A stretch of DNA of 32,000 nucleotides from an uncultured Acidobacteriota bacterium (GCA_963696705.1 CAVOLD010000012.1:78645-110644); one strand, 5' to 3'. Shown: positions 2,673 to 11,539, numbered from the stretch's first letter. A program made the numbers and translations. The notes: generated by a model not told the origin, from the sequence alone.

Positions 2673-3041
2673 CTAGCTGGATTCCGCCTGTTCGCCCGAA
2701 GCGTGCGCTTTCATGTAGGCGCGCAGGATGGCGTTGATGCGGGTTTGGTATCCGCGCTGTTGTCGGAACCAGGCCAGTAAGTCCGCGTCCAGTCGCATAG
2801 TCACAACCGTTTTTCGGGTGGGCCATACGACTTTGGCGTCTTTCCAGAACTCTTCATCCGTGGGGCGCACCTCGGGGTCGGAGGCAATGCCGTGGCGTAT
2901 CTGGGCGTCGGTCCGGTGACGCAGCTTGCCCCAGTCCGTACTCGCACCTGGCTTAGCTTTCGACGTTTTGCCAGTAGGAGCGTCGTTCGTGCGGCTCCGC
3001 CCGCCACGCCGAGATGATGCGTCTTTCGTCTTCGTTTTCAT
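2673..3041 (-). CDS. brnA: BrnA-family antitoxin (DUF4415/COG3514)
   Basis: C-terminal 'VVTMRLDADLLAWFRQQRGYQTRINAILRAYMKA' (RHH-like) and 'DWGKL...TDAQI...DPE..PTDEEF' are typical of BrnA/DUF4415. It lies directly downstream of brnT. The ATG at 3041 overlaps the brnT 3' end by 89 nt, so the start is uncertain. Confidence 0.8.
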   Translation of the reverse strand: MKTKTKDASSRRGGRSRTNDAPTGKTSKAKPGASTDWGKLRHRTDAQIRHGIASDPEVRPTDEEFWKDAKVVWPTRKTVVTMRLDADLLAWFRQQRGYQTRINAILRAYMKAHASGEQAESS

Positions 3042-3231
3042 CCGTGTAAACCACCGTAATTTCCAGACCGTTCACCAGGCCAACCGCATGGACGCGAGTT
3101 TCGCCGTAGTCGAAGCGGTCATCAACTTTTTCCACTGTTGGCCCATCGAAAATGCGCTGCGCATCCTCGAAAGCGATCCCATGCCGGATGAGATTGCGGC
3201 GATTTTTCTCTCTGTCCCAACGGTAGCGCAT
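2953..3231 (-). CDS. brnT: BrnT-family toxin (DUF497 ribonuclease)
   Basis: 'RYRWDREKNRRNLIRHGIAFEDAQRIFDGP...DYGETRVHAVGLVNGLEITVVYTDE...RIISAWRA' is the canonical DUF497/BrnT signature. ATG at 3231. Confidence 0.88.
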   Translation of the reverse strand: MRYRWDREKNRRNLIRHGIAFEDAQRIFDGPTVEKVDDRFDYGETRVHAVGLVNGLEITVVYTDENEDERRIISAWRAEPHERRSYWQNVES

Positions 3232-3249: not shown

Positions 3250-3466
3250 GTCAATATCCGGCGCGCTCTTGCGCGTGGTGCGCCGTCTTCCCGAACACGC
3301 CAGCGCCGGAACGAGGCTATCCTCCTTTTCAACAGTTCCGCTGGGACCGATGACCACCCCGACCTTCCCTCGTCGCCGAAAAGGTCGCTTGTCTCGTGCA
3401 AGCCATTGTTTCTACTATGGATAGCTGATTACCAGGGAACGGCCAAAAACAAACTCAAGAAAAGGC

Positions 3467-3502
3467 TTGACACATGTCTTAGTGTTATAGTTAACTATAA
3501 CA
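3467..3502 (+). promoter_or_regulatory. Putative sigma70-type promoter (TTGACA at 3467-3472) overlapped by a perfect 20-bp palindrome TGTTATAGTT/AACTATAACA (3483-3502); candidate operator
   Basis: Consensus -35 hexamer. The palindrome covers the expected -10 position (17-18 nt downstream). It lies about 55 nt upstream of the first gene of the long + strand cluster. Confidence 0.5.
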
Positions 3503-3558
3503 GTGATTAGACAACCAACTCCCGTACCCGACTCAGAACAGAAAAGGAGAGATTGAAC

Positions 3559-4110
3559 ATGAAACCACGCATCGCACTTTCGGTTGTATTCCTTCTGATC
3601 GCCGCCACCGCGTTCGCAGCGGACGCCACCCCCGGCCCGTCTGACGCCCAAAAATCCTTCGATCAACTGAAAGCTCTGGCCGGTTCCTGGCAAGGGCTGG
3701 TCGCCGCCCCGAAAGACTCTGGAATTCCCGAGGGGTCGATTGTGAAGGTCCAAATGCGGACAACCTCCCGTGGAAACGCTCTGGTGCATGAAATGTACGA
3801 CTGGATGAAGCCAGACGATCCGACCAAGAACGACCATCCGGTCACTATGTTCTACCTCGACAACGACCGCCTCCTGCTGACACATTATTGCGACGCCGGT
3901 AATCGGCCCCGCATGATGGCCCGCACTTCGCCCGACGGAAAGACGGTGGAATTTGATTTCGTTGATGTTGCCGGTAGTACGCAGTACGGACACATGCAAC
4001 ATGTAGTGTTCACTATCATCGATGCCGACCATCACAGTGAGGAATGGACGTTCCTGATGCCGGGAGATAAACTCATGCGCGCCCGCATGGATTTGCAGCG
4101 GATCAAGTGA
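3559..4110 (+). CDS. Secreted protein of unknown function (signal peptide; beta-rich domain with a 'THYCDAGNRPRM' motif)
   Basis: 'MKPRIALSVVFLLIAATAFAADA' is a typical Sec signal peptide. GGAGAG lies 8 nt upstream of the ATG at 3559 (the track start at 3553 is TTG). Family uncertain. Confidence 0.7.
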   Translation: MKPRIALSVVFLLIAATAFAADATPGPSDAQKSFDQLKALAGSWQGLVAAPKDSGIPEGSIVKVQMRTTSRGNALVHEMYDWMKPDDPTKNDHPVTMFYLDNDRLLLTHYCDAGNRPRMMARTSPDGKTVEFDFVDVAGSTQYGHMQHVVFTIIDADHHSEEWTFLMPGDKLMRARMDLQRIK

Positions 4111-4183
4111 CGAAGTCCGAATTTAATCCATGAGTTGCCATCCGAGAAACTCGGGGGCAACTCATGACTCTGAGGAGATTCCC

Positions 4184-4639
4184 ATGACCTTCAACCCGAA
4201 AGCGATTTTTCAACGGAACGACAGATACGAAGGCGTCCGCAACATCAACATTTACCTGTTGCGGTTGCTCTATGTGCTGATGTTCTTCGTGCTGGGCAGG
4301 ATCACCTGGACGCACGTCCTCACCCACCAGGGACCATGGGAGCCGACAAATGCCGTGGCCTGGTGCGTGTGGACGGCGTTCGCGACCTTGGCGGGGATAG
4401 GAATCATCCGCCCGGTGAAAATGCTGCCGATCGTCCTGCTGGAGATCTTTTACAAAATGCTGTGGCTGATTCTTGTAGCGTATCCACTCTTGTCAGCGGG
4501 TACGTTGGCAGGGTCACCCGCGGAAGAGATCACCGCGCAGTTCTTGTGGGTGCTGTTGCCCATCGTCGCGGTGCCGTGGGGGTACGTGTTGGCGAATTAT
4601 TTTTACAAGACGAGGAAAGTGGAAGCCGTTTTTTCTTAG
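4184..4639 (+). CDS. Small polytopic membrane protein (about 4 TM helices), unknown function
   Basis: GAGGAG RBS at 4172-4177 precedes the ATG at 4184. Hydrophobic helices such as 'INIYLLRLLYVLMFFVLG', 'AVAWCVWTAFATLAGIGII', 'LPIVLLEIFYKMLWLILVAYPL', 'FLWVLLPIVAVPWGYVLANYF'. Confidence 0.65.
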   Translation: MTFNPKAIFQRNDRYEGVRNINIYLLRLLYVLMFFVLGRITWTHVLTHQGPWEPTNAVAWCVWTAFATLAGIGIIRPVKMLPIVLLEIFYKMLWLILVAYPLLSAGTLAGSPAEEITAQFLWVLLPIVAVPWGYVLANYFYKTRKVEAVFS

Positions 4640-4657
4640 CTCTATTTGGAAAACACC

Positions 4658-5068
4658 ATGGACAGTGAGTGGAACGACAGTCAACCGATTTACCGCCAGC
4701 TTCGCGATCGCGTGGTCGCGATGATCCTCGACGGCCTGCTCAAAGAGGGCGATCCGTTACCCTCGGTGCGCAACGTCGCGGCGGAGTATCGGGTCAATCC
4801 GCTGACGGTGCTCAAGGGCTATCAGCAACTGGTGGACGAGGGACTGGTTGAGAGTAAACGAGGTCGCGGCATGTTTATCAACACCGGCGCACGCAATCTT
4901 TTGCTGCAGGGAGAACGGCAGACATTTCTTGCGGAAGAATGGCCGAGGGTCTACGCCAACATTCAGCGGCTCGGCTTAACACCGGAGGAACTGCTGGAAG
5001 CCGCCAACGGCAAGCCGTCCAACGCCAATGCCAAGGATAAAGATAAAGACGAGGAGCCAAAGTCATGA
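4658..5068 (+). CDS. GntR-family transcriptional regulator, short YtrA-like subfamily
   Basis: 'PIYRQLRDRVVAMILDGLLKEGDPLPSVRNVAAEYRVNPLTVLKGYQQLVDEGLVESKRGRGMFI' is a GntR winged-helix domain. The short C-terminal part and the immediately following ABC ATPase (stop/start overlap ATGA at 5065-5068) match the YtrA-type arrangement. Confidence 0.88.
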   Translation: MDSEWNDSQPIYRQLRDRVVAMILDGLLKEGDPLPSVRNVAAEYRVNPLTVLKGYQQLVDEGLVESKRGRGMFINTGARNLLLQGERQTFLAEEWPRVYANIQRLGLTPEELLEAANGKPSNANAKDKDKDEEPKS

Positions 5069-5940
5069 CTGTCATCGAAGCACGCGGTCTGCGCAAGGCC
5101 TTCGGCACGACCGTCGCGCTGGACAGCATTAATTTGCGCGTCGATGAAGGCCGCATCCTCGGACTGATCGGTCCGAACGGCGCGGGCAAGAGCACGGCGC
5201 TCAACGCGATTCTCGGCCTCACCCAATATCAAGGGGAACTGAGAGTGCTCGGACGCGATCCCTGGCTGGAGCGCGATCAGCTCATGCGCGATATTTGCTT
5301 CATCTCCGATGTCGCCGTTCTGCCGCGCTGGATGCGGGTGTCGCAGGCGCTCGACTATGTCGCCGGCGTGCATCCGCGATTCGATCGCGCCAAAGCGGAA
5401 GGTTTCCTGACCAAGACCGATATCAAGCGCAACAGCCGAGTCCGCGAATTGTCGAAGGGCATGGTGGCGCAACTGCACCTGGCTCTGGTCATGGCCATTG
5501 ACGCAAGATTGCTGGTGCTCGACGAGCCCACGCTCGGCCTCGACCTGCTGTATCGCAAACAGTTCTACGACTCGCTGCTAAACGATTATTTCGATCGCAC
5601 CCGCACCATATTGGTGACCACTCATCAGGTGGAGGACGTGCAGTACGTTTTGACCGATCTTATGTTCATCAATCGTGGGCGCATCGTGCTCGATTGCAGC
5701 ATGGAAGGCTTCGAGTCGCGCTTTGCGGAAGTGACCGCACGTCCCGAGCAGGTCGCGGCAGCGAGGGCGCTGAAACCGATTCGCGAGCGCCAGGTGCTCG
5801 GCCGCAGCATCCTGCTATTCGATCATGTTGAACGTCAGCAACTCGCGGCGCTGGGCGACGTGCGCACTCCCAGCATCGCGGACTTGTTCGTTGCGGTGAT
5901 GGGTGATCACGTCGAGCCGGCAAAGGGGATGGCCAAATGA
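5065..5940 (+). CDS. ABC transporter ATP-binding protein
   Basis: Walker A 'GPNGAGKST', signature-like 'LSKGMVAQ', Walker B 'LLVLDEPTLGLD', H-loop 'LVTTHQVED'. Start overlaps the GntR stop and stop overlaps the next start. Confidence 0.92.
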   Translation: MTVIEARGLRKAFGTTVALDSINLRVDEGRILGLIGPNGAGKSTALNAILGLTQYQGELRVLGRDPWLERDQLMRDICFISDVAVLPRWMRVSQALDYVAGVHPRFDRAKAEGFLTKTDIKRNSRVRELSKGMVAQLHLALVMAIDARLLVLDEPTLGLDLLYRKQFYDSLLNDYFDRTRTILVTTHQVEDVQYVLTDLMFINRGRIVLDCSMEGFESRFAEVTARPEQVAAARALKPIRERQVLGRSILLFDHVERQQLAALGDVRTPSIADLFVAVMGDHVEPAKGMAK

Positions 5941-6824
5941 ATACTAGGTCGAACGCAATGTCCGGGTCTTTCCGTGATTCGCAGATAAGCGAGTCGCAAG
6001 GAATCGCGCCCGCCATCGTCCGGGCGACTCAGCCGTTCTATTGGTCGGTGAGGCGGGAATTGTGGGAGTACCGTTCCATCTATATCGCGCCGCTGGTCGT
6101 CGCCGCCGTCACGCTGTTCGGCTACCTGATCGCCTTGATGATTCGAGGGGTGGCGCTCCTGCAACCTTTTAGCTTCGCTGCAGGCGTGATCCTGATGGCC
6201 GTTTTTATCGTCTCGATCATCTACTCGCTCGAGGCGCTGCATGGCGAGCGCCGCGATCGCAGCATCCTGTTCTGGAAGTCGCTGCCGGTTTCGGATCTCA
6301 CTACCGTGTTGTCGAAGGCAAGTATTCCGCTTGTCGTTCTGCCACTGCTCGGCTTTGCCATTATTGTTGCCACGGAGCTGATCATGCTGCTGCTGGGCAG
6401 TCTCGTCCTAATGGGGAGGGGCCTGAATGTCGCGACGCTATGGACACCCGTCTTCCGGATGTGGCTGATGCTGCTCTACCACCTGGTGACCGTGCATATG
6501 CTCTGGTATGCGCCAATGTATGGATGGCTGCTGCTGGTCTCAGCCTGGGCGCGGCGCGCAGCGTTTCTGTGGGCGGCATTACCGTGGCTCGCGATCTGCG
6601 CCGTCGAGAAGATCGCGTTCAACACTACGCGATTCGCCGCCATGCTGGGATACCGCTTCGCGGGCGGACCGGAGGCTATCCCAGGAGTAGATAGTTTCTT
6701 TGGTATGACGCAGCTTACCCCGGGCAGATTCTTGAGCAGCCCGGGGCTGTGGATCGGGCTGGCAATCACTGCGACGTTTCTTGCCGGAGCGGTCCGGCTG
6801 CGTCGCTGTCTAGGGCCGATCTGA
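5937..6824 (+). CDS. ABC-2-type-like membrane permease, paralogue 1
   Basis: Polytopic membrane protein, translationally coupled (ATGA) to the ATPase. 'EALHGERRDRSILFWKSLPVSD' resembles the E-x-E/R...LP-V/S motif after TM1 of ABC-2 permeases. Paralogous to 6869-7813. Confidence 0.75.
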   Translation: MNTRSNAMSGSFRDSQISESQGIAPAIVRATQPFYWSVRRELWEYRSIYIAPLVVAAVTLFGYLIALMIRGVALLQPFSFAAGVILMAVFIVSIIYSLEALHGERRDRSILFWKSLPVSDLTTVLSKASIPLVVLPLLGFAIIVATELIMLLLGSLVLMGRGLNVATLWTPVFRMWLMLLYHLVTVHMLWYAPMYGWLLLVSAWARRAAFLWAALPWLAICAVEKIAFNTTRFAAMLGYRFAGGPEAIPGVDSFFGMTQLTPGRFLSSPGLWIGLAITATFLAGAVRLRRCLGPI

Positions 6825-6868
6825 TTCGCATGAGTGGGTCGAACGCCCGCTAAAGGGAGAGCAGCTAG

Positions 6869-7813
6869 ATGAATACGCCATTGAACTCGGTGCCCGAGTC
6901 TTCGATTGGTTCGCAATCAGTTGAGCCGGTAGTGGTCTCGGAGACGCGCCCGCTGTACTGGTCGATCCGGCGTGAGCTATGGGAGAACCGGTCGATCTAC
7001 ATCGCGCTGCTGATCGCCGCGGGCGTTTATTTGATCGGCTACACGATCAGCCTGTTTTGGGTGCCGCGCGGCATGCACGGCATGGGAGTGGACGAATCGA
7101 CGCCTCTGATCGTCCAGCTTGCCATGCCATACGCCCACGCCCAAATGATACTCGCGCTGACCGCGTTCCTCGTTGGCATCTTCTACTCGCTCGACGCATT
7201 GCACGGTGAGCGCCGCGATCGCAGCATCCTGTTCTGGAAATCGCTGCCGGTTTCGGATCTCACGACTGTACTCGCCAAGGCGAGCGTTCCTCTCGTAATT
7301 CTGCCCGTGCTTGTTTTTGTGATTGCCGTGCTGCTGCAAATCGTCATGTGGCTTGAGAGCGGCGCATTTCTCTTGCTGACAGGTGCCAGCACAGCGACGC
7401 CGTGGGCTCCGCCAGTGTTCGAGATGCAATTGGTGCTGCTTTATAGCCTGGTCGTGATGGCGCTCTGGCACGCACCGCTTTACATGTGGATGCTGCTGGT
7501 CTCGGGCTGGCCGCGGCGCGCCACATTTCTCTGGGCCGTGTTTCCGCCGCTGGCCCTTGCTGCGCTTGAGTACATCGCCTTCCACACTACGTATCTCGCT
7601 ACGATGCTGCATAGTCGACTGCTAGGTTTCGACGCGCTCGCTTTTGACCTCGTGGACAAGAATGGCGTCCCCGTAGATCCGCATTTTATTCCGCTGGCAC
7701 AACTGGCTCCCGGGAGATTTCTAAGCAGCCCAGGTCTGTGGCTCGGGCTGTTGTTCGCCGCCTTATGCGTGGCCGGCGCGGTCAGGCTGCGTCGTTATCA
7801 GGGACCGATTTAA
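6869..7813 (+). CDS. ABC-2-type-like membrane permease, paralogue 2
   Basis: GGGAGAG RBS upstream of the ATG. It shares 'RPLYWS.RRELWE.RSIYIA', 'YSLDALHGERRDRSILFWKSLPVSDLTTVLAKAS.PLV.LP' and the C-terminal 'PGRFLSSPGLW.GL...AGAVRLRR..GPI' with the preceding gene. Confidence 0.75.
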   Translation: MNTPLNSVPESSIGSQSVEPVVVSETRPLYWSIRRELWENRSIYIALLIAAGVYLIGYTISLFWVPRGMHGMGVDESTPLIVQLAMPYAHAQMILALTAFLVGIFYSLDALHGERRDRSILFWKSLPVSDLTTVLAKASVPLVILPVLVFVIAVLLQIVMWLESGAFLLLTGASTATPWAPPVFEMQLVLLYSLVVMALWHAPLYMWMLLVSGWPRRATFLWAVFPPLALAALEYIAFHTTYLATMLHSRLLGFDALAFDLVDKNGVPVDPHFIPLAQLAPGRFLSSPGLWLGLLFAALCVAGAVRLRRYQGPI

Positions 7814-7859
7814 TTTACATGCGCTTGATTCAACGAACTCGCGCAAGGAGGTAAAGAGT

Positions 7860-8432
7860 ATGAGCGCAACATTCACGACATTATCGATGGAACGAACAGC
7901 TGGAGCGCCTCCGCGTTTCAAAGCCAAAACGGCCGGCGTCCTCTATTTGCTGAGTGTACTGGTGGCATCGTTCGCCGAGATCTTCGTTCAGGGCAGGATG
8001 AATGTCGCAGGGGGCCTCATCGCGGTCTCGCTAATGATCGCCGCGACGCTGTTCTTCTACGACCTTTTGAGCCCGATGAGCAGGCGCCTCACTTTGCTCG
8101 CTGCAGCTTTCAACCTCGTCGGACTCGCTTTTGAGCTTCTTCGATTGCAGCCTCAGGGCGTGAACGTAGCCGTTGTCTTTGACGCGTTTTATTGCATTCT
8201 GGTCGGATACCTCGTTTTCCGCTCGACCTCCGTGCCCCGATCTCTGGGAGCGTTAATGGCGTTGGGCGGTGTGGGTTGGCTGACCCTCTTGTCTCCCGTG
8301 CTCGCAAGCTATCTGTCTCCCTACAACCTGGCCGTTGGCATCCTGGGGGAAGGATCAGTGTGTCTGTGGATCCTGGTGATGGATGTAAACGTCCGAAGTT
8401 TATTGAACACAGATGATGAGGTACAAAAATGA
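7860..8432 (+). CDS. Membrane protein, DUF4386-like
   Basis: Strong RBS (AAGGAGG) upstream. 'KTAGVLYLLSVLVASFAEIFV' plus 4-5 further TM helices resemble DUF4386 proteins. The family call is from memory only. Confidence 0.65.
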   Translation: MSATFTTLSMERTAGAPPRFKAKTAGVLYLLSVLVASFAEIFVQGRMNVAGGLIAVSLMIAATLFFYDLLSPMSRRLTLLAAAFNLVGLAFELLRLQPQGVNVAVVFDAFYCILVGYLVFRSTSVPRSLGALMALGGVGWLTLLSPVLASYLSPYNLAVGILGEGSVCLWILVMDVNVRSLLNTDDEVQK

Positions 8433-8776
8433 AAAGTTACAACGTTCTTCGCATACTGAAGTTTCCGTTGCTCGCACTGCTCTTTGTCGCAGTGCTCGTC
8501 GGGTTCGGCTTCGTCGTCATGGGCTTGTGGAACTGGCTAATGCCGGCGCTCTTCGGATTGAAATTGATCAGCTATTGGCAAGCCATGGGGCTGCTCATCC
8601 TGAGCAAGATTCTATTCGGCGGATTGCGTGGACCGCGAGGGCGAAGTGGGCCCCGGCTTCATGGTTGGAGAGAACGCTGGAAACAGCGGACGCCCGAGGA
8701 GCGGGAAAAATTCCGTCAAGACCTTCGTGCCTGCTGGAGCCGGATGACATCGCCGGAACCGAGGCCGAGCGCCTGA
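8429..8776 (+). CDS. Small membrane protein (2-3 TM helices, basic C-terminal tail)
   Basis: ATGA overlap with the upstream stop. 'FPLLALLFVAVLVGFGFVVMGLWNWLMPALFGL..ISYWQAMGLLILSKILFGG' is clearly membrane-like. Preferred over the overlapping 8413-8829 ORF in another frame. Confidence 0.6.
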   Translation: MKSYNVLRILKFPLLALLFVAVLVGFGFVVMGLWNWLMPALFGLKLISYWQAMGLLILSKILFGGLRGPRGRSGPRLHGWRERWKQRTPEEREKFRQDLRACWSRMTSPEPRPSA

Positions 8777-8840
8777 GAGCAGCAAGGCTGGCTCCGTTCG
8801 CGCAAGCCACTGGGGAAACACCGAAGTAAGGAGTGTAGAT

Positions 8841-9605
8841 ATGCGATCGCCAATATTACTTCTTCACATTATCGCGGGCACTTTGGGAATGCTGTCTGGA
8901 TTTATCGCAGTGTTTCTCCGCAAAGGTTCGCGCCAACATGGCCTCGCGGGAAAGGTATTCGTCATAGCAATGCTCAGCCTGTCTGCAAGCGGCGTATACC
9001 TGGCGATCTTGAAATCTCAACCGGGCAATATTCTGGGAGGCACACTGACGTTCTACCTGGTTGCGACCGCATGGATGACTGGCCGCCGCAGGGATAACGC
9101 GGAACCCGGCGTCTTCGATTGGGGTGCGCTTCTCATTGTTTCAGCAGTCGTAGTCAGCCAAATGACTTTTGGTTTAGAAGCAGCGTTTAGCCAGACGGGG
9201 CTAAAGTACGGATATCCCTCTTGGCCTTACTTTTTCATGGGCTCCGTGGCTGTGCTCGCCTTCACCGGGGACGTTCGCATGCTGGTGCGCAACGGCGTTT
9301 CCGGCGCGCAACGGATCGCACGGCACCTTTGGCGCATGTGCTTTGCGCTGTTCATCGCAGCATCGTCCATATTTCTGGCGCGGCAACAACTATTCCCCGC
9401 GATATTCCGTAAGACCGGCGCGCTTGCTTTCCTGAGTTTCCTGCCACTGCTGTTAATGATTTTCTGGCTGCTCCGGGTTCGCTTCACAAATGCGTTCAAG
9501 AGGAAAGCGATCGCTCACGCAGCCCCTTTGATTCAATCCCCTGTGGAGAGCCGAGTCCGGCGCATATCTATTGGCCGACCGGCTGGGACTGCAGCAAGAG
9601 TTTGA
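8841..9605 (+). CDS. Polytopic membrane protein (about 6 TM helices), unknown function
   Basis: AAGGAG RBS upstream of the ATG. 'ILLLHIIAGTLGMLSGFIAVFLRKGSRQHGLAGKVFVIAML' and further helices. No catalytic motif recognised. Confidence 0.65.
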   Translation: MRSPILLLHIIAGTLGMLSGFIAVFLRKGSRQHGLAGKVFVIAMLSLSASGVYLAILKSQPGNILGGTLTFYLVATAWMTGRRRDNAEPGVFDWGALLIVSAVVVSQMTFGLEAAFSQTGLKYGYPSWPYFFMGSVAVLAFTGDVRMLVRNGVSGAQRIARHLWRMCFALFIAASSIFLARQQLFPAIFRKTGALAFLSFLPLLLMIFWLLRVRFTNAFKRKAIAHAAPLIQSPVESRVRRISIGRPAGTAARV

Positions 9606-9623
9606 TTCGATTTAGGAGGATGT

Positions 9624-10298
9624 ATGGGAACGCTTGTTGGTCTTGATTGTTCAACCGTTGAATGCACTTCGCCCACCGCACCGATCTGGCAGGACATCCT
9701 TGCACAGGCGGTGACCGGCGAACTGATGGCCGCGATGAACTACACGTCCTTATCGGAGATCTGCGACGATCATGAAGAAGTGGCCGATGCCTTGGAGCAT
9801 GCGCAGATCGAACGAGGGCACGCCGCTCGCTTCGCCGCCGAGGGCCGTAAGATCGGCGTAGATGTCACTAATAATGTCAACGCGATGTACTGGAAGAAGC
9901 TTCGCGAAGCATTCCTGCGTTGTATCACCGAGCGCGATTTTATTGCCTGCCTCATCGTCCAGGAAATCATGCTCGAGTCGTTCGCCGTCGCCAGCTATGC
10001 GCGCGTCGGCAAGGTAGCGCCGGGTAGTCTGGGCACAACCTTCGCATCCATTGCTGCCGAAGAAGAAGAGCACGTCGATCACGCCATGGCGATTCTCCGA
10101 GCCGACCGAGCCTTGGACGCGCAGCGCTTCGACGAGAAACTGTACCGGCTGCATCTCAAGGTGATGACCACGCTTGCGAAGATGCTGGCGAAAGAGTGCA
10201 AGGACGGTCACTGCGAAGTGTGTCATGCGAGTTGCGTGAAGCCAGCGCTGTTCGATGTCAGCTTGAGTGCGGCCGAGCTTCGCTGCAACAGTATCTGA
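9624..10298 (+). CDS. ado: Ferritin-like di-iron protein, aldehyde-deformylating oxygenase (ADO)-like. The annotated stop may result from a frameshift, with the possible true end at 10366.
   Basis: AGGAGGA RBS. Segments line up with cyanobacterial ADO as I recall it. 'TGELMAAMNY' matches 'EGEQEAFDNY'. 'AQIERGHAARF' matches 'AKMEQRHMKGF' (ExxH). 'CLIVQEIMLESFAVASYARV' matches '[20 protein letters not shown]'. 'AAEEEEHVDH' matches 'VRDEYLHRNF' (ExxH). All six carboxylate/His metal ligands appear to be present. Confidence 0.65.
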   Translation: MGTLVGLDCSTVECTSPTAPIWQDILAQAVTGELMAAMNYTSLSEICDDHEEVADALEHAQIERGHAARFAAEGRKIGVDVTNNVNAMYWKKLREAFLRCITERDFIACLIVQEIMLESFAVASYARVGKVAPGSLGTTFASIAAEEEEHVDHAMAILRADRALDAQRFDEKLYRLHLKVMTTLAKMLAKECKDGHCEVCHASCVKPALFDVSLSAAELRCNSI

Positions 10299-10384
10299 AG
10301 ACCCTCGACATGCTTGGAATACCCGGCGAGGTCACACTCGCGTGGGTGGCTCAGTTGCCAGTTTAGCTATGTGGGAGCGGACTT

Positions 10385-11539
10385 ATGGACGTCGATTTCG
10401 CTTTGATCGGGCATCAGGAAAGTTGGCGAGCCGCCGCGGATGTACTCGCTGTCCTGCGCGGACACGAGCGTTCGCCTCTCCCGGACGATGAGATCAGAGA
10501 CATCCTCCCTTGGATTCCGCCCAGAGTGGTCTGCCATGTCGAGGTCGAATCTACTCTCGGCACTGCCGCGCGCGGCCTCTACATCGACTGCTTTATTCCG
10601 CCCGACCGGCTCGGATCCGCCTGCGTGCACGAGAACGTCGCCCGCGTTCGCGCGGCGGCGGCCTGCGCGATCAAGGCGGGAGCGAAGATCGTGAGCCTTG
10701 GCGGATTCAGTTCCATTCTTATCGAAGGCAATTTCGATCAGCTTCCGGCAAGGCACCACACGGTCTTCACCACGGGCAATACGTTGACCGTCGGTTTTAT
10801 CGTTCAGGGCATCAAGAAGATGTGTGCGCTGGAGGGTCGGTGCCTCCGCCGATCAACCCTGCTCATCGTTGGAGCCACCGGAGATGTGGGTTCCGGCTGC
10901 GCGCGCTGTTTGGCGCCTCTGGTAAAGCGCGTCCTGCTCAATGCGCGCAACGAAGCCCGCCTGCGCCGCCTCGCCGCCGAGTTGCAGGCCGATGGAACTG
11001 ATGTAGAGATCGGAACTGATCTAGAGCAATTCTCAGCAAAGCCCGACCTTGTCATCTGCGCAGCCAGCCTCGGATCGCCTTCGCTTCTGTTGGGACGGAT
11101 TGCGCCCCACGCCATTGTTTGCGATGCCGGCTACCCAAAGAACCTCTCTCCAAACGCCGAGATGCCTAACGCCAAAATCTTCTTCGGAGGCCTGGGACAG
11201 ATCACCGGCGGCTTGAACTTTACTCCGGATCTTCGCGGAATCTTGAATCGCCATCCATTCCCCGATGTGGTCCACGGATGTTTACTCGAAGGCATGGCTC
11301 TTGCTCTGGAAGGCCGCTTCGAGCCTTTTTCCCAAGGAAGAGGATTTATCACTCCGGCGCGGGTCGAGGAGATGGAGACAATTGCGGCACGGCATGGCAT
11401 CGATCTCGCTCCGCTTTACAACGCCGACGGACCCGTGGAAAACGGCCTTCATCGCGAAACGGAAAAAGCCGGGCTATCGTCTTCAGCCAACTTAGCGACC
11501 CTACAAAATCCGCACTCTGTCGTTCGTCTACAAGCGTAA
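10385..11539 (+). CDS. aar: Long-chain acyl-ACP reductase (AAR)-like NAD(P)H-dependent reductase
   Basis: Colinear matches to cyanobacterial AAR as I recall it. 'FALIGH' matches 'FGLIGH'. 'SLGGFSSILIEGNF' matches 'ALGGFTSIIFENF'. 'FTTGNTLTV' matches 'FTTGNTHTA'. 'IVGATGDVGSGCARCL' matches 'VVGATGDIGSAVCRWL'. 'DAGYPKNL' matches 'DGGYPKNL'. 'GCLLEGMALALEG' matches 'ACFAEAMLLEFEG' (catalytic Cys position). 'ITPARVEEMETIAARHGI' matches 'ITIEKMEAIGEASVRHGF'. Confidence 0.78.
   Translation: MDVDFALIGHQESWRAAADVLAVLRGHERSPLPDDEIRDILPWIPPRVVCHVEVESTLGTAARGLYIDCFIPPDRLGSACVHENVARVRAAAACAIKAGAKIVSLGGFSSILIEGNFDQLPARHHTVFTTGNTLTVGFIVQGIKKMCALEGRCLRRSTLLIVGATGDVGSGCARCLAPLVKRVLLNARNEARLRRLAAELQADGTDVEIGTDLEQFSAKPDLVICAASLGSPSLLLGRIAPHAIVCDAGYPKNLSPNAEMPNAKIFFGGLGQITGGLNFTPDLRGILNRHPFPDVVHGCLLEGMALALEGRFEPFSQGRGFITPARVEEMETIAARHGIDLAPLYNADGPVENGLHRETEKAGLSSSANLATLQNPHSVVRLQA

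What the first reader, a model, noticed from the sequence alone, without database searches (positions are those of the whole stretch)
3467..11539. One long co-directional operon joins a GntR/ABC exporter module and five extra membrane proteins to an ADO/AAR-like hydrocarbon module; candidate lipid/hydrocarbon synthesis-and-export system
Eleven + strand genes run from 3559 to 11539 with short gaps or 4-nt ATGA overlaps (5065, 5937, 8429), and I saw no obvious internal terminators. The order is secreted protein, 4-TM protein, YtrA-like GntR, ABC ATPase, two ABC-2-like permeases, DUF4386-like protein, small TM protein, 6-TM protein, ADO-like, AAR-like. In cyanobacteria the ADO/AAR genes are not, to my knowledge, linked to a transporter. 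A dedicated exporter, several membrane proteins and a secreted protein suggest the product (alkane, aldehyde or derived lipid) is handled in or exported through the envelope. The link between the modules is inference from synteny only.
Basis: inference. Interest (0 to 1): 0.72.

Follow-up and report, generated by a model that had tools for sequence, protein, structure and literature searches.

The report
ABC-exporter operon with appended ADO/AAR-like pair
A soil acidobacterium carries a self-regulated ABC-exporter operon with distant relatives of the two cyanobacterial alkane-synthesis genes attached to its end; the two parts often travel together but each also occurs alone, and in this genome one synthesis gene looks broken.

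Summary
It consists of two separable units.

Unit A (genes g1-g9) is a YtrA-type GntR/ABC-2 transporter operon. It is headed by a secreted nitrobindin-like beta-barrel protein. An 18-bp perfect palindrome (3484-3501) sits just downstream of a -35-like box.

Unit B is an ADO-like/AAR-like gene pair. The ADO-like protein has the ADO fold and all six di-iron ligands. The AAR-like protein keeps the catalytic Cys. Both score far below the equivalog cut-offs.

Among 62 Acidobacteriota species loci with enough upstream sequence, 49 have A directly upstream of B, in about 39 different genomic contexts. This supports co-expression.

The link is not obligatory:
- Thirteen loci, forming essentially one clade, have B alone, and 12 of them carry their own ECF-like promoter motif.
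- Bacteroidota place B in a different lipid-type cluster.
- All 6 independently sampled unit-A loci lack B, including the closest relative and one syntenic relative.

In this window the ADO-like gene has a 10-nt frameshifting deletion that removes its last ~30 residues.

Verdict: a new variant built from known kinds. The "dedicated synthesis-and-export" reading is only partly supported.

The parts
3466..3472 (+). -35-like box CTTGACA preceded by an A-rich tract; candidate promoter of the whole array
   Evidence: Sequence read. CTTGACA/CTTGCAT lies at the same distance (11 nt) from the palindrome in 26 diverse related loci. The simple sigma-70 scan did not call it; no clean -10 hexamer is evident.
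3484..3501 (.). Perfect 18-bp palindrome GTTATAGTTAACTATAAC (flanked by AGT/ACT); candidate operator of the YtrA-like repressor g3
   Evidence: It occurs once in the window. It is conserved with 0-3 mismatches 64-160 nt upstream of g1 in most module-carrying loci (two lie further upstream, three loci have no g1 call), normally once per locus. It fits the long GT...AC palindromes described for YtrA regulators (PMC4494728).
3553..4110 (+). g1: secreted protein of an uncharacterised family (ATG at 3559 is the likely start); predicted 10-strand nitrobindin/calycin-like beta-barrel with invariant HYCDAGNRPRM and several invariant His
   Evidence: No Pfam, NCBIfam or PDB sequence hit. Alignments A4/A5. 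AF2 model pLDDT 81. Foldseek matches nitrobindin, Rv2717c and OssO at E~1e-6, TMt 0.58-0.73. Present in 44 of 47 module+pair loci.
4130..4639 (+). g2: small membrane protein (about 4 TM segments); variable accessory gene
   Evidence: No family hit. Hydropathy. Found only in the closest relatives.
4646..5068 (+). g3: YtrA-like GntR-family regulator (140 aa)
   Evidence: PF00392 56 bits, residues 16-78. Best small-regulator NCBIfam hit is PmtR (52.7 bits, below cut-off). 4-nt overlap with g4.
5065..5940 (+). g4: ABC ATPase of the DrrA/PmtA-like (ABC-2 exporter) type
   Evidence: PF00005 76 bits. TIGR01188 drrA 120 bits and PmtA 116 bits, both below cut-off.
5937..6824 (+). g5: permease, tandem paralogue of g6
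   Evidence: 52% identical to g6. About 6 TM segments. Most relatives carry a single copy.
6869..7813 (+). g6: permease (weak ABC-2 similarity)
   Evidence: PF12679 ABC2_membrane_2 17.7 bits, below the 27.2 cut-off.
7860..8432 (+). g7: DUF4386 membrane protein; accessory, present in about half of the related loci
   Evidence: PF14329 49.5 bits; distribution.
8429..8776 (+). g8: 2-TM small protein; in about 12 relatives a homologue follows an ECF sigma-factor gene downstream of the AAR-like gene
8841..9605 (+). g9: DUF2306-like 6-TM membrane protein; accessory
   Evidence: PF10067 25.6 bits, below cut-off; rare among relatives.
9624..10298 (+). g10: ADO-like di-iron protein, truncated ORF (224 aa instead of 250-252)
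   Evidence: PF11266 53.6 bits; TIGR04059 55.8 bits against a 222.65 cut-off. The six metal ligands align with ADO. Invariant GHCxxCxxxCxK loop. The model of an 85%-identical full-length relative matches ADO structures at TMt 0.85-0.89, rmsd 2.2 A.
10279..10366 (+). Site of the 10-nt deletion (between 10279 and 10280), followed by the out-of-frame remnant of the ADO-like C-terminus up to the original stop at 10364-10366
   Evidence: DNA alignment with L023, L058 and L007. The same deletion is in JGI contig L009, which ends 7 nt after the premature stop.
10385..11539 (+). g11: AAR-like NAD(P)H-dependent acyl-thioester reductase homologue, intact
   Evidence: TIGR04058 136.5 bits (cut-off 449.7). 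Full-length match to S. elongatus AAR 6JZQ, E=1.7e-28, with GATGDxGS and the Cys aligned to the Cys in AAR's '...mfaCfaeamllefeg' segment. It follows the ADO-like gene in 80 of 80 genome loci.

Best explanation
The array is a composite of two units.

Unit A (g1-g9) is an ordinary YtrA-type, self-repressed ABC-2 exporter operon. It is elaborated with a secreted nitrobindin/calycin-like beta-barrel protein as first gene and with a variable set of small membrane proteins. Its promoter is a CTTGACA -35-like box followed by an 18-bp palindrome that the GntR protein most likely binds.

Unit B (g10-g11) is an autonomous two-gene cassette that is widespread in Acidobacteriota and Bacteroidota. It encodes an AAR-like reductase, which by homology converts an acyl thioester to a fatty aldehyde. 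It also encodes an ADO-fold di-iron oxygenase, which by homology converts the aldehyde to a Cn-1 alkane plus formate, or performs another oxidative step on the aldehyde.

In a large Terriglobales/Acidoferrales lineage, B sits at the 3' end of A without a promoter motif of its own. It is therefore most likely co-transcribed with the transporter and controlled by the same repressor. This is regulatory coupling, probably to an envelope or hydrophobic-compound stress signal, and not an obligatory synthesis-export partnership.

In this particular genome a 10-nt deletion truncates the ADO-like protein, so unit B is probably decaying or inactive.

Shown: gene order, homologies, conserved residues, the conserved palindrome, the distribution of A and B, and the deletion.
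Inferred: co-transcription, repressor binding, enzyme chemistry and transport direction.
For: Gene spacing, and no intergenic terminator-like sites beyond chance.

YtrA features:
- 140-aa GntR overlapping the ABC ATPase by 4 nt.
- A single long GT...AC palindrome, conserved upstream of g1 in most module-carrying loci examined.
- This matches published YtrA regulon architecture (PMC4494728).

A+B adjacency:
- 47 complete modules plus 2 cut by a contig end, out of 62 loci.
- 39 distinct flank combinations among 41 loci with both flanks.
- In many loci the permease ends about 45 nt before the ADO-like start.

Complementary promoter pattern:
- 12 of 13 pair-only loci (plus L077) carry A-tract + (T/G)GAAC-N16-CGTA 42-98 nt upstream of the ADO-like gene.
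- Only 2 module-linked loci do.
- The background rate is about 1 per 130 kb.

The remaining pair-only locus, L086, has the unit-A promoter and palindrome fused 143 nt upstream of the ADO-like gene.

Separability:
- B alone in the Bryobacterales-like clade.
- B with GNAT-like, DUF3419 and FA_desaturase genes in Bacteroidota.
- A alone in L170-L178, including syntenic L177 and closest relative L178.

Enzyme homology.

Deletion.
Against: - No transcript data exist. Co-transcription rests on spacing and on the absence of a recognisable internal promoter.
- All module-linked ADO-like sequences fall in one broad part of the ADO tree. The adjacency may therefore stem from one or a few ancestral events.
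They are not a random sample.
- Whole genomes could not be inspected, so unlinked co-occurrence is unknown.
- The genome scan kept only the 80 of 358 loci most similar to P0033.
- The 10-nt deletion could be a shared assembly or consensus artefact at a short direct repeat (GAGCTTCGC/GAGCNTCGC).
- Both enzymes score far below the NCBIfam equivalog cut-offs, so the chemistry is not established.
Confidence: 0.6

Rival explanations
1. This is the first reader's model: a dedicated synthesis-and-export system. AAR-like and ADO-like proteins make an aldehyde or alkane. The ABC-2 transporter expels it from the cytoplasmic membrane, and the secreted beta-barrel protein g1 carries it across the periplasm to the outer envelope.
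For: - A lies upstream of B in 49 of 62 loci despite shuffled flanks.
- g1 is predicted to have a calycin/nitrobindin-type barrel, a fold that often binds hydrophobic ligands or haem.
- The ABC ATPase is of the exporter-type DrrA/PmtA kind.
- YtrA/PmtR-type regulators can sense the exported amphipathic product (own knowledge of S. aureus PmtR).
Against: - Unit A, complete with the same accessory membrane genes, is present without B in 6 of 6 sampled lineages.
- B is present without A in a whole clade and in Bacteroidota.
- The g1 family is larger than the ADO-like family (7087 against 2203 clusters).
- No product or substrate information exists.
- The window's ADO-like gene is frameshifted while unit A is intact.
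Confidence: 0.2
2. The adjacency is historical only. An ancestor of the Terriglobales/Acidoferrales lineage acquired the pair next to a common ABC operon. The order has simply been inherited, with no functional or regulatory relation.
For: - Module-linked ADO-like sequences form one broad group in the ADO tree.
- Up to about 4 kb of unrelated membrane genes can be inserted between the permease and the ADO-like gene.
- Both units function elsewhere alone.
Against: - 39 different flank combinations occur in 41 loci while the junction is kept and stays co-directional.
- Module-linked pairs lack the promoter motif that pair-only loci carry.
- L086 places the unit-A promoter and operator directly in front of the pair.
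Confidence: 0.15
3. This rival concerns the chemistry only. The pair does not make alkanes. The AAR-like enzyme supplies a fatty aldehyde, and the ADO-fold di-iron protein, with its extra GHCxxCxxxCxK loop, performs a different oxidation. The pair feeds a specialised polar or functionalised lipid.
For: - Only about 20% identity to ADO, and scores at a quarter of the equivalog cut-off.
- An invariant Cys3(+His) loop that is absent from cyanobacterial ADO.
- In Bacteroidota the pair is embedded between a GNAT-like acyltransferase-type protein, a DUF3419 (BtaA-like) protein and a membrane FA_desaturase/AlkB-family protein, sometimes with a P450.
Against: - The complete ADO fold and all six ligands are kept.
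- The gene order ADO then AAR is as in cyanobacteria.
- In Acidobacteriota no further lipid-tailoring genes are conserved next to the pair.
Confidence: 0.35

Closest known systems
Cyanobacterial AAR/ADO alkane pathway (S. elongatus orf1594/orf1593; PDB 6JZU complex, 2OC5, 4RC5)
   Same: - Two adjacent co-directional genes, with the ADO homologue first.
- ADO eight-helix ferritin-like fold with E, ExxH, E, ExxH ligands.
- The AAR homologue aligns end to end, with the nucleotide-binding GATGDxGS motif and the catalytic Cys.
   Different: - About 18-21% (ADO) and roughly 30% (AAR) identity.
- Far below the TIGR04059/TIGR04058 equivalog cut-offs.
- An inserted GHCxxCxxxCxK loop between helices.
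- Hosts are non-phototrophic Acidobacteriota and Bacteroidota.
- Linked to a YtrA/ABC operon or driven by an ECF-like promoter motif.
- Activity unknown. The window copy is frameshifted.
YtrA-subfamily GntR regulators in operons with ABC transporters (B. subtilis ytrABCDEF; S. aureus PmtR-pmtABCD)
   Same: - Small GntR with a short C-terminal domain, translationally coupled to an ABC ATPase and permease(s).
- A single long palindromic operator with distal GT/AC at the operon promoter.
   Different: - The first gene is a secreted nitrobindin-like barrel.
- Variable DUF4386/DUF2306 membrane genes.
- A biosynthetic-looking enzyme pair appended in many genomes.
- Scores to PmtR/PmtA are below their cut-offs.
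Nitrobindin / Rv2717c / OssO-type calycin beta-barrels
   Same: Predicted 10-strand barrel preceded by a helix.
   Different: - No sequence similarity detectable.
- Carries a signal peptide.
- Has its own invariant HYCDAGNRPRM and HH-E-W motifs.
- Ligand unknown. TM-scores are only moderate (0.55-0.73).
Bacteroidota GNAT-like / ADO-like / AAR-like / DUF3419 / FA_desaturase cluster (found here; uncharacterised; includes cultured Pontibacter, Adhaeribacter, Eudoraea)
   Same: The same ADO-like family (about 40% identity, same Cys loop), immediately followed by the same AAR-like family.
   Different: Completely different partner genes. None of g1-g9 is present.

Membership tests
Aldehyde-deformylating oxygenase (ADO; PF11266 / TIGR04059) | Ferritin-like eight-helix ADO fold | tested here: met
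   AF2 model of P0033 (85% identical, full length), pLDDT 90. Foldseek to 26 ADO chains at TMt 0.81-0.89, rmsd 2.1-3.0 A. The window copy lacks the last helices.
Aldehyde-deformylating oxygenase (ADO; PF11266 / TIGR04059) | Six di-iron ligands (Glu, Glu-x-x-His, Glu, Glu-x-x-His) | tested here: met
   Aligned to ADO ligands. E35, E65, H68, E120, E149 and H152 (P0033 numbering) are invariant or nearly invariant.
Aldehyde-deformylating oxygenase (ADO; PF11266 / TIGR04059) | Score above the curated family threshold | tested here: inconclusive
   The Pfam gathering score is passed (53.6 against 28), but only profile positions 14-147 of 218 are matched. The NCBIfam equivalog cut-off is failed (55.8 against 222.65).
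Aldehyde-deformylating oxygenase (ADO; PF11266 / TIGR04059) | Intact full-length coding sequence in this window | tested here: not met
   A 10-nt deletion at 10279/10280 gives 224 aa instead of 250-252 aa. Invariant R222, G223, Y229, L233, D234, G237 and W246 are lost.
Aldehyde-deformylating oxygenase (ADO; PF11266 / TIGR04059) | Converts a Cn aldehyde to a Cn-1 alkane plus formate | not testable with these tools
   No experimental report was found in the searched library.
Acyl-ACP reductase (AAR; TIGR04058) | End-to-end homology, with the nucleotide-binding motif and the catalytic Cys (Cys294 in S. elongatus numbering, from own knowledge) | tested here: met
   6JZQ E=1.7e-28 over residues 5-340. 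GATGDVGSG aligns with GATGDIGSA, and Cys299 aligns with the AAR Cys.
Acyl-ACP reductase (AAR; TIGR04058) | Score above the equivalog cut-off | tested here: not met
   136.5 bits against 449.7. The next best family is the PigE reductase domain at 82.6 bits.
YtrA-subfamily GntR / ABC transporter operon | GntR wHTH domain with a reduced (about 50-60 aa) C-terminal domain | tested here: met
   140 aa, with the GntR domain at residues 16-78. Criterion from PMC4494728.
YtrA-subfamily GntR / ABC transporter operon | Regulator gene in an operon with ABC transporter genes | tested here: met
   4-nt overlaps at g3/g4 and g4/g5. The order is conserved in all module loci.
YtrA-subfamily GntR / ABC transporter operon | Single long palindromic site with distal GT...AC upstream of the operon | tested here: met
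   GTTATAGTTAACTATAAC at 3484-3501, conserved in most module-carrying loci examined. Protein binding itself was not tested.
ABC-2 type exporter (DrrAB-like) | ATPase and permease reach the family thresholds | tested here: inconclusive
   ABC_tran is clear at 76 bits. drrA scores 120 bits against a 312 cut-off. The permease ABC2_membrane_2 hit is 17.7 bits against 27.2, and g5 has no hit.
Dedicated biosynthesis-export gene cluster (obligate co-occurrence of both modules) | Each module is found only together with the other | tested here: not met
   The pair occurs alone in 13 of 62 Acidobacteriota loci and in 80 of 80 Bacteroidota-type loci. The module occurs alone in 6 of 6 sampled lineages.
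Nitrobindin/calycin beta-barrel (g1) | 10-strand antiparallel barrel | tested here: inconclusive
   The model has pLDDT 81, but only two of five models are confident. Foldseek gives E~1e-6 with TM 0.52-0.73 and rmsd about 5 A. There is no sequence-level support.

The most novel reading that the evidence does not exclude
Abundant soil Acidobacteriota (and Bacteroidota) possess a genuine, non-cyanobacterial AAR/ADO-type hydrocarbon pathway. Its oxygenase carries a built-in Cys3-His metal site for electron delivery. It is switched on by envelope-stress regulators (a YtrA repressor or an ECF sigma factor). In Terriglobia its hydrophobic product is handed to a co-expressed ABC-2 exporter and a periplasmic calycin-like carrier for delivery to the outer envelope.
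Probability: 0.12. Interest if true: 0.8.

Novelty: new variant of a known kind. Interest (0 to 1): 0.52.

Why it matters
AAR/ADO alkane synthesis is generally treated as a cyanobacterial speciality. Here a distant but catalytically complete-looking ADO/AAR-like pair is found in hundreds of species-level genomes of Acidobacteriota. Of 358 confirmed hits, the 80 inspected are almost all labelled Acidobacteriota. The pair is also found in Bacteroidota, including cultured strains.

If the pair makes alkanes or aldehyde-derived lipids, three things would change:
- It would add a heterotrophic soil source to hydrocarbon and lipid-biomarker budgets.
- It would give biotechnology a new ADO variant, possibly with its own electron-entry site.
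- It would tie membrane hydrocarbon chemistry to envelope-stress regulation.

The conserved palindrome, the ECF-like promoter motif and the cultured Bacteroidota carriers make these ideas directly testable.

For this specific window the value is lower. The transporter link is facultative, and the ADO-like gene appears broken.

Tried and rejected
- Alignment A1 (14 diverse ADO-like proteins) was too divergent for the locus scan. A2 and A3 were used instead.
It was redone with database homologues.
- A profile search of g1 against PDB sequences found nothing.
- The Rfam scan of the whole window found nothing.
- Literature searches for ADO/AAR homologues in Acidobacteria or Bacteroidetes, DUF3419 clusters, the Kitasatospora ADO-like protein and acidobacterial alkane biosynthesis gave no relevant paper.
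- My greedy ORF caller picked spurious antisense ORFs and over-extended AAR starts in this GC-rich DNA. Presence/absence counts were therefore taken from tblastn.
- I first read the Cys motif as a C-terminal extension. The model shows it is a loop inserted between helices, and the C-terminal helices are part of the ADO fold.
- I considered a sigma-54 promoter for the pair-only motif. The GG-GC spacing does not fit, whereas GAAC-N16-CGTA fits the ECF type (own knowledge of the consensus).
- GNAT-like, DUF3419 and desaturase partners of the Bacteroidota cluster were searched for in the window and in the acidobacterial loci. There were no hits.
- I looked for the ECF-like motif near the ECF sigma genes that follow the AAR-like gene in about 12 loci. 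None was found.

Full report
OBSERVATION

The window carries eleven co-directional + strand ORFs from 3553/3559 to 11539. Three junctions are 4-nt ATGA overlaps, at 5065, 5937 and 8429. All other gaps are 86 nt or less.

The terminator-like hits on the + strand lie inside coding sequence or upstream of g1. Their number (9) equals the shuffled expectation of 9.7.

- g1 has a signal-peptide-like N-terminus and no known family.
- g2 is a small membrane protein.
- g3 is a 140-aa GntR regulator with a short, YtrA-like C-terminus.
- g4 is an ABC ATPase whose best NCBIfam matches are DrrA and PmtA, both below their cut-offs.
- g5 and g6 are tandem paralogous permeases (52% identical) with only a sub-threshold ABC-2 hit.
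- g7 is DUF4386.
- g8 is a 2-TM protein.
- g9 is a weak DUF2306 match.
- g10 matches Ald_deCOase.
- g11 is AAR-like.

Rfam finds nothing in the window.

A MISSED DEFECT

Homologues of g10 are 250-252 aa and end in ...LRGASLQQYLKTLDMLGLPGEVTLAWVTQLPV. In the window this tail is encoded in a different frame (10280-10366).

A DNA alignment with three relatives shows that 10 nt (TCGCGGAGCN) are missing between 10279 and 10280, at a short direct repeat. The resulting protein has 224 aa. It lacks residues that are invariant across the family. These residues form the last helices of the fold.

The same deletion is present in an independent JGI contig, which ends 7 nt after the premature stop. Either the gene is decaying in this population or both assemblies share an artefact. 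Reads are needed to decide.

WHAT THE ENZYME PAIR IS

g10 is a remote but real ADO homologue:
- Pfam gathering score is passed (53.6 against 28).
- All six di-iron ligands align with those of solved ADOs.
- A confident AF2 model (pLDDT 90) of an 85%-identical full-length relative superposes on 26 ADO chains with TM 0.81-0.89 and rmsd 2.1-3.0 A.

It nevertheless reaches only 55.8 bits against the NCBIfam equivalog cut-off of 222.65. It also carries an invariant GHCxxCxxxCxK loop, inserted between two helices, that cyanobacterial ADO lacks.

g11 aligns end to end with S. elongatus AAR (E=1.7e-28). It keeps GATGDxGS and the Cys that aligns with the AAR active-site Cys. It scores 136.5 bits against a cut-off of 449.7.

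The two proteins therefore work like AAR and ADO in fold and catalytic equipment. They cannot be filed as equivalogs, and their product is unknown. No paper on them was found in the library. Public pipelines already auto-name them "long-chain fatty aldehyde decarbonylase".

IS THE LINK TO THE ABC MODULE CONSERVED?

A scan of one genome per GTDB species gave 358 confirmed ADO-like loci. The 80 most similar were fetched, and almost all are labelled Acidobacteriota MAGs; five carry other phylum labels.

The AAR-like gene follows the ADO-like gene in 80 of 80 loci.

Of 62 loci with at least 4.5 kb of upstream sequence:
- 47 have GntR + ABC ATPase + permease upstream on the same strand, and 44 of these also have g1.
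- 2 more have the module cut by the contig end.

In many loci the single permease ends about 45 nt before the ADO-like start. In others, up to about 4 kb of varied membrane genes are inserted there (DUF4386, DUF2306, VWA and others).

Among 41 loci with both flanks available there are 39 different combinations of flanking gene families. The composite has therefore stayed together while everything around it changed. That argues for more than chance adjacency.

THE LINK IS FACULTATIVE IN BOTH DIRECTIONS

(i) Thirteen loci lack any module. They form essentially one clade in the ADO tree, and most are labelled Bryobacterales or Bryobacteraceae. Nothing but the pair is conserved there.

(ii) A metagenome scan seeded with distant homologues returned 80 low-GC loci. 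Database names place this clade in Bacteroidota: Sphingobacteriales, Chitinophagales, Pontibacter, Adhaeribacter and Eudoraea. The ADO-like gene is again followed by the AAR-like gene, usually directly, wherever the contig extends far enough. None of g1-g9 is present. Instead the pair is flanked by a GNAT-like protein, a DUF3419 (BtaA-like) protein and a membrane FA_desaturase-family protein. A few loci add a P450 or an AhpC-like gene.

(iii) Conversely, all six independently sampled lineages of g1 homologues carry g1-GntR-ABC-permease, with or without DUF4386/DUF2306, but no ADO/AAR pair.
- L178 has g1 94% identical to the window's g1. It has the same nine-gene order g1...g9 and then opposite-strand genes.
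- L177 is syntenic with the window (CoA-binding protein, GAF/SpoIIE phosphatase, g1...g8, a DUF2306-family gene, MgsA). A DUF1801 gene sits where the pair would be.
- The g1 family is also larger than the ADO-like family (7087 against 2203 90%-identity clusters).

REGULATORY ANATOMY

Upstream of g1, in order, lie an A-rich tract, a CTTGACA box (3466-3472), 11 nt of spacer, and a perfect 18-bp palindrome GTTATAGTTAACTATAAC (3484-3501) flanked by AGT/ACT.

This architecture is conserved with 0-3 mismatches upstream of g1, mostly 64-160 nt away, normally once per locus. It is found in most module-carrying loci, whether or not the pair follows.

It matches what is published for YtrA-subfamily regulators (PMC4494728):
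- short C-terminal domain;
- operons with ABC transporters;
- single, unusually long palindromes with GT/AC far from the centre.

I infer that g3 represses the array from this site.

Pair-only loci instead carry an A-tract followed by (T/G)GAAC-N16-CGTA, 42-98 nt upstream of the ADO-like start. This holds in 12 of 13 loci, plus L077. Only two module-linked loci have it. The strict motif occurs about once per 130 kb elsewhere. By my knowledge of promoter consensus sequences it resembles an ECF-sigma promoter.

The remaining pair-only locus, L086, has the unit-A promoter and palindrome 143 nt upstream of the ADO-like gene. Its ADO-like sequence is adjacent to module-bearing L087 in the tree. A deletion of the module that left its promoter in place is therefore the simplest reading.

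In summary, the pair has its own promoter motif where it stands alone and none where it follows the module. This is the best available evidence that, in the window's lineage, the pair is read from the g1 promoter. It is still an inference.

g1

The family has no Pfam, NCBIfam or PDB sequence match. It has a conserved signal peptide, an invariant HYCDAGNRPRM motif and several invariant His residues.

The AF2 model has pLDDT 81, with two of five models confident. It is a helix followed by a 10-strand barrel. Foldseek places it with nitrobindins, M. tuberculosis Rv2717c and the OssO/OlmO spirocyclases, at E about 1e-6 and TM 0.52-0.73.

A hydrophobic-ligand or haem binding role in the periplasm is plausible but unproven.

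MOST LIKELY MECHANISM

Unit A is an autoregulated YtrA/ABC-2 exporter system, with a secreted barrel protein and accessory membrane proteins. It works independently of the pair.

Unit B is a mobile two-gene cassette. By homology it reduces an acyl thioester to an aldehyde and oxidises that aldehyde at a di-iron centre.

In Terriglobales/Acidoferrales, B has been placed under A's promoter. Elsewhere it answers to an ECF-type promoter. Both regulator types are typically tied to envelope or membrane stress (established knowledge for YtrA and ECF systems). The coupling is therefore best read as co-regulation of a membrane-lipid or hydrocarbon-modifying activity with an efflux system.

Export of the pair's product by the transporter remains possible but is not required by the data. 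I give the co-regulated-but-separable model 0.6, the dedicated synthesis-export model 0.2 and pure historical adjacency 0.15. Independently, I give about 0.35 to the possibility that the product is not an alkane.

NOVELTY AND SCORE

The parts are known kinds: a YtrA/ABC operon, the ADO fold, the AAR fold and a calycin barrel. New elements are:
- the non-cyanobacterial ADO/AAR-like cassette with its Cys loop;
- its alternative regulatory and genomic contexts;
- the g1-led module with its conserved operator.

That makes it a new variant of a known kind. Interest is moderate. The family-level finding is attractive and testable, and cultured Bacteroidota carriers exist. The specific claim of a dedicated export system is only partly supported, and the window's ADO-like gene appears disrupted.

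Noticed in passing
window 3484-3501 (with the -35-like box at 3466-3472): A perfect 18-bp palindrome GTTATAGTTAACTATAAC lies 11 nt downstream of CTTGACA. It is conserved upstream of g1 in most related module loci and is the likely YtrA-type operator.
   Followed up: yes
window 10279/10280; remnant 10280-10366: A 10-nt deletion at a short direct repeat frameshifts the ADO-like gene. The same lesion is in JGI contig L009, which ends 7 nt after the premature stop.
   Followed up: yes
L042, L067, L070-L072, L074, L075, L077, L080, L081, L084, L085, L089: 42-98 nt upstream of the ADO-like start: A conserved A-tract followed by (T/G)GAAC-N16-CGTA, resembling an ECF-sigma promoter, is found almost only where the pair lacks the ABC module.
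   Followed up: partly
L086 9858-9875: This is a pair-only locus. The module-type promoter and palindrome (GATATAGTTAACTATATC) sit 143 nt upstream of the ADO-like gene, as if the module had been deleted and its promoter retained.
   Followed up: partly
L005/L006/L040 12136-13071 and about 9 further loci: An ECF sigma-factor gene (Sigma70_r2/r4_2) starts 4 nt after the AAR-like stop. It is followed by a homologue of the window's small 2-TM protein g8 (about 50% identity). This may be a sigma/anti-sigma pair.
   Followed up: no
L090-L169 (e.g. L106 1088-2140, L119 9773-10882, L160 4505-5428): Bacteroidota-type cluster: GNAT-like protein, ADO-like, AAR-like, DUF3419 (BtaA-like) and FA_desaturase-family protein. 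A few loci add a P450 or an AhpC-like gene. It looks like an uncharacterised lipid pathway.
   Followed up: partly
proteins P0196, P0210, P0217, P0224, P0226: More distant ADO-like homologues are fused to an N-terminal SAM-methyltransferase domain and/or end in a Cys-Cys tail (…SCC, …GRCCG).
   Followed up: no
window 2673-3231 (- strand): A BrnT toxin / BrnA antitoxin pair lies immediately upstream of the array, on the opposite strand.
   Followed up: no
window 5937-7813: The two permease genes are tandem paralogues (52% identity). Most related loci have a single copy.
   Followed up: yes
L177 13661-14065: In a relative syntenic with the window, a DUF1801 gene occupies the position of the ADO/AAR-like pair, between the DUF2306-family gene and mgsA.
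   Followed up: partly
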